A stretch of 64,000 bases of DNA, taken from assembly GCA_964016885.1 (NCBI GenBank), contig OZ024746.1, positions 20,832,001 through 20,896,000 on the forward strand, written 5' to 3'. The notes beneath the pieces were generated by a model. The model saw nothing but the letters and a program-made list of their open reading frames with translations. It ran no database searches and had not been told where the DNA came from. How positions within the stretch are numbered: position 1 is the stretch's first letter; each line of letters starts with the position of its first letter. The DNA comes from Eledone cirrhosa (taxonomy: Eukaryota). Below are positions 24,266-62,666 of the stretch, in pieces. The position numbers and the translations under genes are program-made.

Positions 24266-24560
24266 ATATTGTTATACTTGGGGAGGGTCATATTTGTGTA
24301 ATAATATTGCCAGAATTAATAACAGAACACACTCACTGTTTGGTTGGTTTTCGCTTCTGTGTCTTTTATATCGGTTAATTTAATTTATTCGGTCCTCAAT
24401 GTTACCATTGACTGACCAACGGTCAAAAATACTGATATAATATAGACACAAACACATATATATAGTTTATCAAAGTTCTTTCGTTGCACATATGTAGCAT
24501 CGTCAGTGGTGCTATTATGTTTCCTCCCGTTGTATTGTATGCCTACGCCATCTTTATTTA
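24266..24560 (-). mobile_element. Hammerhead-bearing Penelope-like terminal-repeat fragment
   Basis: Homologous to 35296-35600; degenerate CTGACGA...GAAA motif on the minus strand at 24467-24511. Confidence 0.6.
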
Positions 24561-25205
24561 GTCTGTTTATTTATTTATTTATTTATTTATATTTTTTTAT
24601 ATTTTTTTTAATTTTTTTTTTAAATTTATTTATATATATATATATATATGTATATATATGTATATATATATATATATGTATATGTATATATATATGTATA
24701 TATATATATATATATATATATATGTATATATATATGTATATATATGTATATATATATATATATATATGTATATGTATATATATGTATATACATATATATA
24801 TATGTATATATATGTATGTGTGTGTGTATGTTATACTCTATTATATATGCCTGGATGGTATATTAATTTATATAAACTCGATCTTTGCCACCTCCTCGAG
24901 AAATATTTTCTAATTATTCATTTAATAATCTCAGATTAATTGAGCTGTACATAGTCATCCCGGCATGCAACTTTATTAGAATTTTCGTTAGCACACTCAC
25001 TCACACGTGTGTATATGTACTTTGTAGTAATCATTTTTGCTGTTGCTGTTGTAGAAAATTTCTTTCTCCTCTGTATCTGCTCCTATTTCACAAACACTGG
25101 CTGTTTACCAATCTTACCTCTCTGTCTTAGACCCACACTAACTCGCCCCCGTCCCATTGTCTCTGTTCATTTTCTTCTTCAAACATTATGATTCCTCGCT
25201 GAGTA

Positions 25206-25385
25206 GGCAGTATCGGTTGAGGGTCGGACGCCATGCTTTCCAATATAGAATTACGTCCCTTTACGGTCTGAGTTCAAATCCCGCCGAGGTTAACTTTGCT
25301 TTTCATCCTTACGGGGTCGATAAAATAAAGTACCAGTAATGCACTGGGATAATTGCTGGCCTTGTGCCAAAAGTAGAAACAGTTA
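25206..25385 (+). mobile_element. SINE family A
   Basis: Matches 20392-20580. Confidence 0.85.
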
Positions 25386-27660
25386 TGATTCCCTGTTTAT
25401 GGTCCGCCTGTTTTTATACCAAAAAAATTGGTAAATTTTCTTTGAAATGCAATCGACATACATAAGAGGGTATGTTTCAGAAATGCGAACCCCCACACTT
25501 ACAGCAGCTACAACAGCAACAACAACAACAACAGCAACAACAACAAAAGCATCAACGAGAACAATAATAATGATTTTTGATTTAAGCACAAGGCCAACAA
25601 TTTTGGGGGAGGCGAAAGTCGATTAAATCGACCCCAGTGTGTTAGTGATTCTTTATTTTTATCGACCCCGTAAGGATGAAAGGCAAAGCTGACCTCAGCG
25701 TCTACAACGAAGCTCCACGCAAGATTTGAAATAAATTGCACAGCAACGCCAAATCAAAAGCGAATTTCATCAGAAAACCAAGTAAAATATGTTAGTTAAA
25801 AATCCACAAACCTTCGCCAAAATATATTTTATGTATGACTTATTTCTGACATATAAATTCCTTTGTTGCCATTGAAAACACGTACGGGAAATGTAATCTG
25901 TTGAAAAACAGCCACCATACGTCGTGGAGAGTTTACAAGCGCTGCATAATAACGACCAAAGCATCTGCCATAAATCAAAAGGAAAACAAAAAAACCAAGG
26001 AAAATCAATGCATGTAAGTAATGCTCATAAAATGTATTGATTGCTGATATATTTCAAGTGTTCATATGAAAACAGGTGAGCAACGAAGGATGGATGAAAA
26101 GACCAAACTATCACAGATAAACACAGCAAACAGTCAAAATAAAACTCATAAACAGTATAATTCTGTAGAAAATGAAATAACAAAAATACGAGGATACACA
26201 TATTGAAGAAAAAAATATGACGACCTATGTGTGTAAAAGCGTACAAACAGAATTGGTACTCGTCAAAAGGGAAGACATTTTAAATGAAGGGCCCAAATTT
26301 AGCCCCCAAGTGCTACAAATAAAATCAAGAAGACATAAATGGACATGAGAGAAATATGTGTCGGTTATATATGCATATTTTACGGCAACACTGCACTCTG
26401 AAGATGAAAGTACAACAGTTTTACACATAAAAACTGTGGATCAAAAACCAACTAACGAACATAAAAATATTGAGAATTTAAACCATGGAGATAGAACCAA
26501 CATATCCAAAGCAACAATAGGCAACAAACCCCAACCCTAAAATATATACAGATTATTAACTAACAAAAACCGATTCAAGACAACACAGCCAAAAATACAA
26601 ATTAAAGGAAACATGAAAGGGAAGATACAGGAAAAAGAAACCCCAAATACAAAATTCAGTACTGCAATAGAATAAAGATAAAAATAATCCAGGAACCTTA
26701 AACAAAAGAAGATGAAAATCAATAGCGAAATAGAAACCATTTTAAAAACGTTAACCAGGCTATCAAAGACTTAACTAACACGAACAGAAACATTCGTAGC
26801 ACAAGGCTAAATAACAGAACAACCACTAAGTATGGATGGTCGATCAATCGATCAGGATCCCAATAATAGCAGGTTCCTTATCTACCCTGTCTATGATGAA
26901 GGTTGCCGTGGATGGATTTGTTCGGAATGGTACATGTTTGCTCTTCTATCACACTATCGACAACAAGTTCTAACGTCGATGCTGAAGACTTCTCCAAATT
27001 GTTGAACTTTCTGTTTAGCAAAGCTATGAACCTAAAATTTCAATGTGGCCCCTCTTATTCTCGTCATTTATCCGCAGCGCCACTCTGCTGCGAGTTTGTG
27101 AGTATAACTCCGTTGCAAATGACTCGTTATATTTCTTGACTCGGTCGGTATACTATATAGCAATGCCTCAGTTTACATAAACAGAACAGTTTGTACTCAG
27201 CAGTAGTGTGAATTAACTTAAAATTTAATCAATTCTAAAGCAGAAAGACATTTATTTCAAAGATAGTTGGATTGAACCCATCAAAGTTAAGGGTCAAATC
27301 ATTATTGACCAGTGACCAACAGAAGTGTTTGCAGTGATTAATTTTTAATCAATTCTTTCGAATTAAATTATGAAATAATCAACCCCGTTATATTAGAGGA
27401 AAGATTGAAATCCAGGTAATTGCCTCCATGCAATTGGATTTAATTATAGGTTCAAATACTAAAATGATTGAAAATTACCCCACGCTGGAATTTCACTGCA
27501 TCTTGAAATTAGTTTAAGAAAAATTTATCAAATAACCATAAATTCTATTATTTTGTTTTTTCCTAATAAGTGGTTCGGAGAGAAAACATTGAGATGTTAT
27601 GCGAATGCTGTGGTTTATACCCTTTCGAAATCTGTAATATCATTTCTTCTTCTTAATAAT

Positions 27661-27846
27661 AATTGTTTCTACTTTTTGGCACAAGGCCAGCAATTAACCA
27701 ATGCATTACTGGTACTTTATTTTATCGATCCCGGAAGGATGAAAGGCAAAGTTAACCTCGGCGGGATTTTAACTCAGGTCATACAGAGAGGTAACTCTAT
27801 GCTTCAAAGCATGACATCCGACCCTCTACCGATACTGCCAATCCAC
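27661..27846 (-). mobile_element. SINE family A
   Basis: Matches 462-651. Confidence 0.85.
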
Positions 27847-28239
27847 AATAATAATTCAGGTTATTAATTGTTTTAGTAGTGTACATTGAATGGCGTATGA
27901 TAACTGATATAATTTTAATGTCAAATATAGCATTATAATTTGAAGTTATAATTAACTTTTTGATAAAGGATTTGCTGGAGAATCATAAATATTACATTGC
28001 TCAAATTAATTAAGAAATAATATAACTGATCTTAGCAGTAGCATAAAGAAATTGGATTTATGTGACTGCAAATAGAAAAATAGGAATCATTGTCACGTTA
28101 ATTTAATAACTTTAGTTAGAATATTGATGGATTTTTAACTGCACACAACATGAAATTTATTTTACTAAAGCAATGTTAGCTAATCACACAATTTATTCAA
28201 TATACGGAATCTCACAATATCACGAAAGACTATTGACAT

Positions 28240-28441
28240 TACGAGAGCCGGCTGAAAAGTTTATAGGCTGACCAAGGCACTCTCATGGAATGACCAAATG
28301 AGGTATATTTTTCAAAATACTCCCTGGAAAGAAGCAATGCAGTTATTAACAAGAAGAGTTGAAATTAATGTATGCAAGATTTCACAGCTCCAGCATCAAT
28401 CCTTCCTAGTCAGTCTATGAAATTCTCAGCCGACTCTCGTA
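28240..28441. mobile_element. Tc1/mariner-type MITE with TA TSD
   Basis: TA-CGAGAGCCGGCTGAAAA...TTCTCAGCCGACTCTCG-TA. Confidence 0.85.
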
Positions 28442-28487
28442 TGTAAAAATAATTGAGCTGTATCGAATAAAAACAAATCACACAACT

Positions 28488-60992: not shown

Positions 60993-61197
60993 ACGAAGGG
61001 AATGTGGTAAGGAACCAGGTGGACCATAACGCACCAAAGTACTCAATACTTAGGGTAGTAGAGTGGGTAATAGGAACGAGTAGGACCCCGACGGCTGAGC
61101 TCAAGCCGTTCCGACGGCTAATTCTGGACTAAGTTTAGTCCAGAATTAGCCGTCGAAACGGCTTGAGCTCAGCCGTCGGGGTCCTACTCGTTCCTAT
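60993..61197. mobile_element. (TA)n-flanked element with 63-bp hairpin (17318 family)
   Basis: Arms 61070-61132 and 61135-61197, one mismatch. Confidence 0.88.
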
Positions 61198-61216
61198 ATA
61201 TATATAAATATATTAT

Positions 61217-61450
61217 TAGAAATGTAAGCTATCGCCGTATTTTGACTAAAGAAATTAAAGAAATTATTTAGCCTGATAGTGGGGTTAAGAACCCTTGGAG
61301 AAATGGAAACTCATCTTTTTCCATTTCTCCGAGGGTTCTTAACCCCACTATCAGGCTAAATAACTTCTTTAATTTCTTTAGTCAAAATACGGCGATAGCT
61401 TACATTTCTATTAATTTCAAACCCACTCGCTGTTTCGAAAATATTCTTAC
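61217..61450. mobile_element. Fold-back element with 93-bp arms
   Basis: Arms 61217-61309 and 61318-61410; 40-bp one-sided extension to (TA)n. Confidence 0.8.
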
Positions 61451-61839
61451 TATATATATATATATATATATATATATATATATATATATATATATATATA
61501 TATATATATATATATATATATATATATATATATATATTGGTAAACGGAATAGAAAATGCTGACAAATTGTTCACAGTTGAAAAATGGTTTAATTAGGAAT
61601 AAAAGAGTATTAGTGATTGTATGGGTTAGTATTCAGTTGTGGTTTTAAGTTTTTAAGTTTTTACCGGTTGCGCATTTCTAAATGCTTTTCAAAATATATA
61701 TATATATTACACACACACACACTCCCCCCCCTCTCTCTCTCTCTCTCTCTCTCTCTCACACACACATATATGCACATGTATACATATGAATGATTAACTT
61801 TGTTGACCTGGATATTTATATATATTGATGTGCAAGATA

Positions 61840-62021
61840 TACGAGGTTTGGCTGAAAGGTTGGCTGAAAGGGAATGATGCTAGAGCTGTGAAATCTTGCA
61901 TGCATTAATTTCAACTCTTCTTATTAATAACTGTATTATTTGCTTTTGAAAAACAAACCTCATTTGGTCATTCTATAAGAGTAACTTGGTCCGCTTATGG
62001 ACTTTTCAGACAACCCTCGTA
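61840..62021. mobile_element. Tc1/mariner-type MITE with TA TSD
   Basis: TA-CGAGGTTTGGCTGAAA...TTTTCAGACAACCCTCG-TA. Confidence 0.8.
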
Positions 62022-62344
62022 TATCTATTGATATGTAGATATACATCTGTTTGTATATAGACATATAAGTTCATATAATTATTAGATTCGTCTATATACT
62101 TGCATAGTTATATTTCCGAACACAGACAACACCTTAAACAGGGGCTGGAAGCTAATTATGTAGAGATGATATTAAAATACATTCTTACTTTTCGGTAACT
62201 AAACTATTGAATCAGTTTAAATCTGACCAATAGTTCATTTATGTTTATTGCCTCTGTGATTTGTCTAAACATTGCGTCTTTTCTGTGTGTAGATTCTATT
62301 TTTATTTCTATGTTCTCTAATTTGCCCTTATGTTCTATTTTAAG

Positions 62345-62666
62345 CACACAACACACACAAAAACAAGCAGGCGTAGGACAGAACAAAGGAGAGGCACAAA
62401 AACAAGCAGGCGTAGGACAGAACAAAGGAGAAGCACAAAAACAAAGAAAAGAATCTCCAGTCACCGAAGAGGTCACAGAATGTGTGACGAAAGAATTTTG
62501 ACAATATATGAACAACCGTCCGGTTGTGGAACCAACCAACCAACCAACCAACCGGAAATTTATAAATTCTTAAATTTATAAATTTAATTTATAATAAATT
62601 GGAGTGAAAGCAACTGGTGCGTGTGTTTCTTATTGGCAACATGACCCTCCCAAAGCATAACAATAT
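62345..62666 (+). mobile_element. Divergent relative of the 35241 family with hammerhead-like motif
   Basis: Ends ATGACCCTCCCAAAGCATAACAATAT-(TA)n like 35975-36000; motif at 62460-62502; internal 39-bp duplication. Confidence 0.6.

What the first reader, a model, noticed from the sequence alone, without database searches (positions are those of the whole stretch)
24467..62502. Hammerhead motif with compensatory stem II changes across three related elements
35545-35518(-): CTGACGA-T-GTTGCA-GATG-TGCAAC-GAAA. 24506-24479(-): the same motif, decayed, followed by GAACTT-TGA. 62460-62502(+): GTCA-CCGAAGA-G-GTCACA-GAATG-TGTGAC-GAAA-GAATTT-TGAC, with a 4-bp stem I. Stem II changes sequence but stays paired, an extra nucleotide follows the core in all three, and all lie ~175-245 bp from the same terminus (ATGACCCTCCC..AACAATAT). 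This covariation suggests selection on a ribozyme fold, although no single copy is perfect.
Basis: partly seen in the sequence, partly recalled or inferred. Interest (0 to 1): 0.75.

Follow-up and report, generated by a model that had tools for sequence, protein, structure and literature searches.

The report
Penelope retrotransposon hammerheads, ordinary stubs
The three motifs are hammerhead-shaped RNA sequences in the cut-short ends of two very abundant Penelope-type jumping genes, where such motifs are already known to sit; their fold has been kept by paired mutations, but they likely cut RNA only weakly, and the copying enzyme reads straight through them.

Summary
The motifs are at the stated coordinates. 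They are minimal type I hammerheads in the pseudo-LTR of 5'-truncated Penelope-like elements (PLEs). Copies 24506 and 35545 belong to family A (8,475 exact motif matches in the genome), and 62464 to sister family B (17,119). [quoted passage not shown] The shared 'terminus' is its start codon (MTLPKYNN). The extra nucleotide, G10.1-C11.1 and the tiny helix III are published PLE hallmarks (PMC4209133). In the window the covariation is one contrast of two pairs. Copy 35545 is intact; 24506 breaks 2 of 6 stem II pairs; 62464 has a private U4C change. Genome-wide, no core base differs between families, and old copies suggest a stepwise stem II path through a G-U pair. 5' ends of copies do not pile up at the predicted cut (2 of 78, 2.8 expected), in line with Anolis PLE biochemistry (PMC11167929). 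Cleavage is untested. This scan has already reported this family elsewhere in the genome. Verdict: a new member of a known kind.

The parts
24266..24615 (-). E1: 5'-truncated family A PLE stub (end of 3' UTR, hammerhead, 5' UTR, ORF start), between two TA arrays
   Evidence: blastn to E2 83-84% and to the full unit in L031 80%; TA arrays 24227-24269 and 24627-24817
24471..24508 (-). E1 hammerhead: helix I 2 bp, core intact, stem II 4 of 6 pairs (decayed), helix III segment AGAACU, triplet CUU
35920..36000 (+). E2 inverted 81-bp copy of the element's 3' end, running into (TA)n 35997-36045
   Evidence: 100% inverted match to 35296-35376
35827..35919 (-). E2: last 30 codons of the GIY-YIG endonuclease (EIEIRRPKLNRKNEWNNNNTQTNNTDLRGV) and stop
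   Evidence: same end as P0003/P0004
35588..35676 (-). E2 conserved words upstream of the hammerhead, CGCATGCGCA and AAAATGGCG (NRF1-like and YY1-like; labels recalled, not tested); candidate internal promoter
   Evidence: present in families A and B; family B 5' ends cluster at the second word
35510..35547 (-). E2 hammerhead, intact: helix I CA/UG, CUGACGA, extra U, stem II 6 of 6, GAAA, helix III segment AGAUUU, triplet UUA; predicted cut between 35512 and 35511
   Evidence: commonest family A haplotype, 12 of 55
35241..35321 (-). E2 ORF start (MTLPKYNNICFDTRFHIKNLAKLIHRR): the 'terminus' plus the ~55-nt PLE tail
   Evidence: tblastn 100% to P0002 residues 1-34; two 3' end classes
62231..62342 (-). 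E3 inverted fragment of the family B endonuclease C-terminus
   Evidence: 93-96% to family B loci L060, L061, L064; tblastn
62343..62666 (+). E3: 5'-truncated family B PLE stub with a 39-bp internal duplication, ending at AACAAT in (TA)n; ATG at 62641
   Evidence: 84-88% to family B loci; duplication 62356-62444
62460..62502 (+). E3 hammerhead: helix I 4 bp, core with private U4C, extra G, stem II 6 of 6, helix III segment AGAAUU, triplet UUU

Best explanation
The three motifs are minimal type I hammerhead sequences in the pseudo-LTRs of truncated copies of two sister Penelope-like retrotransposon families, conserved across the families as a fold, and they likely act as weak, protein-assisted ribozymes that do not cut the RNA which gets copied into DNA. 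Shown: the parent element, its tandem and inverted insertions in TA repeats, two 3' ends inside the ORF start, an unchanged core, and no excess of 5' ends at the cut site. Inferred: the RNA starts about 85-110 nt upstream of the cut site, runs through the ORF into the next pseudo-LTR, and is reverse-transcribed from internal sites just after the ATG, so the enzyme crosses the downstream hammerhead uncut. Inferred and untested: the two hammerheads of a unit transcript pair their short helix III segments with help from the element's protein and cut late or rarely. That would remove the cap or the priming site, and so retire the RNA (a turnover or self-limiting step).
For: Parent element: 4,145-4,147-bp tandem unit; ORF with TDKS, LYGLRKDHK, RYVDD, CX4CxxC linker and GIY-YIG-type end; relatives hit RVT_1 (6 of 18) and GIY-YIG (3 of 18). 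Family B loci carry the sister ORF, about 56-65% identical over the endonuclease end. Core: 0 of 11 core positions differ between A and B; all shared variants inside the motif fall on loop 2, loop 3, 16.2 (C or U, pairs with G15.2), H17 and outer helix I (55 A and 60 B copies picked by a downstream anchor). 5' ends within 5 nt of the cut: 1 of 28 (A) and 1 of 50 (B), expected 1.0 and 1.8. 3' ends: short class 45 of 81 and 46 of 101, tail class 31 of 81 and 52 of 101. PMC11167929 (parts 1-2 of 4 read): internal initiation at two sites in the ORF start, hammerhead cleaves only with protein, catalytic mutants do not affect insertion. PMC4209133 (parts 1-2 of 4): monomer inactive, dimer weakly active.
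Against: No cleavage or expression data. Rfam gives no hammerhead match on two of the copies even at E 10. Helix I of family A is only 2 bp and is not predicted to form (probability 0.01-0.05). The commonest helix III segment, AGAACU, is not a full palindrome and its self-duplex is unfavourable (+1.4 kcal/mol). P0004 itself hits no Pfam family. The 5'-end cluster at the YY1-like word is seen in family B (13 of 50, 4.2 expected, window chosen after looking) but not clearly in A (4 of 28, 2.3 expected). A cut-and-religated circle would also leave no 5' ends at the cut.
Confidence: 0.62

Rival explanations
1. The two hammerheads of a unit transcript cut, the unit is ligated into a circle, and the circle is the template; reverse transcription crosses the healed junction and can give tandem units.
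For: Model proposed in PMC4209133 (parts 1-2 read). Four same-strand motif copies 4,145-4,147 bp apart at G000:C1:14.38 Mb. No 5' ends at the cut, as a circle would give.
Against: Family B 5' ends cluster about 91-115 nt upstream of the cut (13 of 50), which fits a linear RNA with a fixed start. In Anolis, uncut RNA was the main substrate and no reads ended at the cut site (PMC11167929).
Confidence: 0.2
2. The motif is kept as a structural or protein-binding element in the 5' UTR (translation control or RNP assembly) and no longer cuts.
For: Very short helices I and III; no genomic mark of cutting; PMC4209133 leaves non-cleaving roles open.
Against: All 11 catalytic core bases are kept across families about 60% identical in protein, and H17 is A or U (G in 2 of 115 copies), which is what catalysis requires (recalled rule that G17 blocks cleavage).
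Confidence: 0.12
3. The stem II 'covariation' is a by-product of CpG decay from a stem with CG in both arms, or of plain shared ancestry, with no selection on pairing.
For: GTCGCA/TGCGAC exists (24 of 100 listed), and both main stems are one CpG transition per arm away from it. Only two stem types are abundant (searches find 8, 1 and 5 others). Tree backbone support is low.
Against: With 5' arm GTCGCA the 3' arm is TGTGAC in 54 and TGCAAC in 16 of 100 listed, not symmetric. The tree places GTCACA copies basal, GTCGCA copies in between and GTTGCA copies on top. Mismatched combinations are rare. Core and helix III constraints do not depend on CpG.
Confidence: 0.08
4. The elements are non-autonomous retrozymes or MITEs with terminal inverted repeats.
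For: E2 has perfect 81-bp inverted ends; short non-coding look.
Against: E2 and E3 contain endonuclease codons and the ORF start; 5' ends vary freely and 53 of 182 copies extend more than about 850 nt upstream; no short tandem monomers at these three sites.
Confidence: 0.03

Closest known systems
Minimal hammerheads of metazoan PLE pseudo-LTRs (Cervera and de la Pena 2014, PMC4209133; parts 1-2 of 4 read)
   Same: Type I topology, extra nucleotide between 9 and 10.1, G10.1-C11.1, stem II longer than 4 bp, helix I of 2-5 bp, tiny helix III, thousands of single copies in truncated elements, pairs on opposite strands a few hundred bp apart.
   Different: Loop 3 is mostly AA or GA and so not palindromic; only the AGAUUU subfamily is self-complementary, through G-U pairs. 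A search for cephalopod + Penelope + hammerhead ribozyme returned only PMC8557442.
C-terminal endonuclease PLEs with a CX2-5CxxC linker, Nematis/Neptune type (Craig et al. 2021, PMC8557442; passages, section 11, supplement parts 53-54 and search hits read)
   Same: RT then GIY-YIG; linker C-x4-C-xx-C with a 7-residue spacer as in the Nematis rows of Fig. S2; CCHH residues present; partial tandems, inverted 5' copies, tail, (TA)n targets.
   Different: DKG reads DKS; ORF about 1,230 codons with an Asn-rich insert; about 60 extra residues between RT motifs A and B; tail about 55 nt against 30-40. Clade not placed by a tree.
Poseidon PLE of Anolis carolinensis (Frangieh et al. 2024, PMC11167929; parts 1-2 of 4 read)
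   Same: Two 3' ends inside the ORF start that define a tail; AT-rich targets; no sign of ends at the hammerhead cut.
   Different: There the hammerhead overlaps the start codon; here it lies about 140-200 nt upstream of the ATG. No stable stem-loop was found in the tail here.
Animal non-LTR retrozymes (bioRxiv 10.64898/2026.07.22.740005, part 1 of 5 read)
   Same: Type I hammerhead, linked to PLE pseudo-LTRs.
   Different: These copies are truncations of a coding element, not short tandem non-coding monomers.

Membership tests
Type I hammerhead (PLE minimal form) | Core CUGANGA, GAAA and UH | tested here: met
   Met in E1, E2 and both family majorities; E3 has a private U4C
Type I hammerhead (PLE minimal form) | Stem II with G10.1-C11.1 and an extra nucleotide after A9 | tested here: met
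   6 bp, pairing probability 0.91-0.99 in five of seven folded copies, 0.57 in one, 0 in decayed E1
Type I hammerhead (PLE minimal form) | Helix I closing the junction | tested here: inconclusive
   4-5 bp in family B, only 2 bp in family A; the two inner pairs never vary and so carry no covariation
Type I hammerhead (PLE minimal form) | Short, self-complementary helix III that allows a dimer | tested here: inconclusive
   Two outer pairs always kept (G-C 9, G-U 3 of 12 rows); central two bases AU, AA or GA; self-duplex -1.7 to +1.4 kcal/mol
Type I hammerhead (PLE minimal form) | Self-cleavage after H17 | not testable with these tools
   No assay; no genomic excess of 5' ends at the site
Rfam hammerhead families | Covariance-model score | tested here: not met
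   No hammerhead match on E2 or E3 at E up to 10; E1 not scanned alone
Endonuclease-bearing Penelope-like elements | RT with C-terminal GIY-YIG | tested here: met
   Motifs read in P0003/P0004; Pfam hits only on relatives
Endonuclease-bearing Penelope-like elements | Tandem units, inverted 5' copies, optional tail, hammerhead in pseudo-LTR | tested here: met
   inverted partner upstream of 42 of 78 truncated family B copies
Nematis clade | CX2-5CxxC linker with short spacer, CCHH | tested here: met
   By eye against Fig. S2 rows of PMC8557442
Nematis clade | Grouping with Nematis in an RT tree | not tested
Hydra clade | No CCHH, CxCX5C linker, DKT, under 3 kb | tested here: not met
   CCHH present, CX4CxxC, DKS, 4.15 kb
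Naiad clade | N-terminal GIY-YIG, no canonical hammerhead | tested here: not met
   Endonuclease is C-terminal
Non-LTR retrozyme | Non-coding short tandem monomers | tested here: not met
   Copies hold ORF ends and vary freely at the 5' side

The most novel reading that the evidence does not exclude
This genome keeps a fossil series of a ribozyme stem changing step by step through a G-U intermediate (GTCACA/TGTGAC, then GTCGCA/TGTGAC, GTCGCA/TGCGAC, GTTGCA/TGCAAC) while the catalytic core never changes, although the copied RNA is not cut there. The PLE hammerhead would then be a catalytic switch selected for a step outside templating, a protein-triggered self-destruct of the element's RNA, in an unplaced DKS-type PLE lineage.
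Probability: 0.3. Interest if true: 0.5.

Novelty: new member of a known kind. Interest (0 to 1): 0.2.

Why it matters
Little as a discovery: hammerheads in PLE pseudo-LTRs are published and expected. Its use is as material. More than 26,000 copies with graded subfamilies give a natural mutational series for the open question of what PLE hammerheads do, and they support from the genome side the in vitro result that uncut RNA is the template.

Tried and rejected
A DNA search of the own genome with E2 found nothing, because common words are skipped; patterns were used instead. No RNA holder listed; laying four coded runs as contigs showed the family in other runs, with no variant listed inside the core or stem II at the 10% level, and says nothing on expression. 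Rfam whole-window scan: only the top 150 of 318 rows were shown, mostly microsatellite-driven miRNA models. Searches for further stem II types gave 8, 1 and 5 scattered copies. The alternative intermediate GTTACA/TGTAAC appears once in 100 listed, so that path was rejected. A hairpin in the tail was not supported (z 0.19, 0.68, -0.96). Hydra membership, a lead from earlier notes, was tested and rejected. The Fisher test (0 of 46 against 97 of 402 sites, p 1e-5) is not relied on, because many 'other' sites are linked indels in simple sequence; the one core hit was an alignment shift (U16.1 is T in 55 of 55). The shuffle control (0 of 500) is not relied on either: the 13 rows were chosen by me and are related. 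One search failed for family A through a pattern error and was redone. PDB search gave only weak RT matches. No structure or complex prediction was run.
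Full report
Observation. The window lies in a 3.0-Gb, microsatellite-rich animal genome; the closest protein hit of the parent element is from Octopus vulgaris at 69%, so the host is likely an octopod. A strict hammerhead descriptor finds 9 hits in 464 kb around the window and 0 in 20 of 20 block shuffles. In the window it passes 2 of the 3 copies; the decayed one fails.

What the elements are. E1 (24266-24615, minus) and E2 (35241-36000) are 83-84% identical; E3 (62231-62666) matches them by blastn only at the 27-33 bases of the 'terminus'. 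Exact patterns for the two motifs match 8,475 (family A) and 17,119 (family B) places in the genome, a joint pattern 26,598, with 0 for each reversed control. Four family A matches at G000:C1:14.38 Mb lie 4,145-4,147 bp apart. That unit holds a long ORF beginning MTLPKYNN, broken by one frameshift in this copy; another copy gives 1,097 open codons (P0004). It carries TDKS, LYGLRKDHK, RYVDD, a C-x4-C-xx-C linker and a VVYSIRC...YIGET...H...H endonuclease end. Pfam finds nothing on P0004, but RVT_1 on 6 and GIY-YIG on 3 of 18 aligned proteins. Family B loci carry a sister ORF about 56-65% identical over the endonuclease end. So the 'terminus' is the start codon region, conserved because it codes. 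E2 reads: an inverted 81-bp copy of the 3' end, 30 endonuclease codons and stop, 3' UTR, hammerhead, 5' UTR, ATG, and a tail of about 55 nt. E3 has an inverted 112-bp endonuclease fragment before its direct piece. This is the partial-tandem, inverted, tailed, TA-targeted anatomy described in PMC8557442 (passages, section 11, supplement parts 53-54 and search hits read). The linker resembles the Nematis rows of its Fig. S2 (by eye); Hydra and Naiad features are not met; no tree with references was made.

The motif. It reads as a type I hammerhead: helix I (CA/UG in A, GUCA/UGAC in B), CUGANGA, one extra base, a 6-bp stem II opening with G-C, GAAA, a 4-base insert and UH. PMC4209133 (parts 1-2 of 4 read) lists the extra base between 9 and 10.1, G10.1-C11.1, a long stem II, a short helix I and a palindromic 15.2-16.2 as recurrent traits of PLE hammerheads. 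To avoid picking copies by the motif, I took copies by anchors next to the ATG (14,438 and 23,958 matches). From the first 100 listed of each I fetched all B and 90 of 100 A places; after merging duplicates 81 A and 101 B remained. Of these, 55 A and 60 B reach at least 100 nt above the cut and keep the upstream word (3 dropped for lacking it). No core position has a shared variant. Shared variants inside the motif are at loop 2, loop 3, 16.2 (U or C, both pair with G15.2), H17 (A or U; G in 2 of 115) and outer helix I. Rare changes hit core, stem and flanks at similar rates (0.006-0.015 per site and copy), as expected for dead copies. Against the window copies: E2 is intact, E1 has two broken stem II pairs, E3 has U4C, seen in 2 of 100 listed B matches.

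Covariation. In the window it is one contrast, two pairs (10.3/11.3 and 10.4/11.4). Only these two stem types are abundant. An older group with family A flanks carries the family B stem (296 matches; 72% to A in the endonuclease end of one copy), so the B stem is likely ancestral. A 5' arm GTCGCA occurs 153 times; among the 100 listed its partner is TGTGAC 54, TGCGAC 24, TGCAAC 16 and TGTAAC 6 (counted by eye). The other possible intermediate appears once in 100 listed. A tree of 37 copies with the motif masked (7 dropped for short flanks) puts GTCACA copies basal, GTCGCA copies between and GTTGCA copies on top, with 99 support for the top group but only 13-70 along the backbone between them. 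This fits a stepwise path through a G-U pair. CpG decay may contribute, and it remains one lineage, so it is suggestive and not a significant covariation test.

Does it cut the template? If cut linear RNA were copied, 5' ends should gather at the cut. Within 200 nt above to 110 nt below it, 1 of 28 A and 1 of 50 B ends lie within 5 nt (1.0 and 1.8 expected). Family B ends gather instead near the word AAGATGGCG, 91-115 nt upstream (13 of 50, 4.2 expected, window chosen afterwards); family A shows 4 of 28 against 2.3. That word and the upstream GCATGCGCA look like YY1 and NRF1 sites (recalled labels). 3' ends fall in two classes, at AACAAT and about 55 nt further. PMC11167929 (parts 1-2 of 4 read) found the same logic in vitro for an Anolis PLE: two internal starts in the ORF, a hammerhead that cuts only with protein, and insertion unaffected by core mutants. 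Folding agrees with a weak motif: stem II is stable in most intact copies, helix I of family A is not, and helix III self-pairing is marginal. Rfam has no match.

Mechanism. Shown: element identity, insertion anatomy, core conservation, read-through of the motif in the copies. Inferred: transcription from the pseudo-LTR, internal priming after the ATG of the downstream unit, and rare, protein-assisted, two-copy cleavage that retires the RNA. The main rival is cut-and-circularise, which also leaves no ends at the cut.

Novelty. A new member of a known kind. Five literature searches found no description of these families, but the class is in print. Earlier notes of this scan describe the same MTLPKYNNI family, its promoter cluster and edited copies on other pieces of this genome; they are unchecked leads, and I had obtained my 5'-end and editing results. 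Interest 0.2.

Noticed in passing
L211 (G000:C1:18413085-18414163): A family B copy with 26 A-to-G changes and 1 other change in 187 nt against its nearest copy; its inverted arm shows the same change in element sense. Looks like ADAR-edited RNA written into DNA; 1 of 164 copies passed the filter.
   Followed up: partly
window 50640-50810: Near-perfect palindrome centred at about 50710 with CTGATGAG at its middle; likely head-to-head ends of another PLE family with a hammerhead cut short at the junction.
   Followed up: no
window 31901-33526 (+): 541-codon open frame with RVT_1 and zf-RVT matches, a non-LTR retrotransposon fragment.
   Followed up: partly
window 11081-11652 and 12031-12602: 572-nt inverted repeat, 99% complementary, ending in a TA array; possibly another inverted PLE insertion.
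   Followed up: no
window 43639-43744 (+): 5S rRNA match above the Rfam gathering score (43.9 against 38 bits); pseudogene or 5S-derived repeat.
   Followed up: no
window 6214-8790: 2.6-kb (CTAC)n array with extreme GC skew.
   Followed up: no
464-kb region around the window: Two further hammerhead families without the extra base (stems GTCCT/AGGAC and GATGT/ACATC), three copies each.
   Followed up: no
P0004 relatives: 98 related proteins, mostly unnamed, share DKS and LYxLRKDHK and are poorly covered by Pfam; possibly an unnamed PLE subclade. P0093 appears to join such a piece to a leucine-rich-repeat gene model.
   Followed up: partly
window 50101-50121 (-): One-mismatch match to the ORF-start word without the rest of the element.
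   Followed up: no
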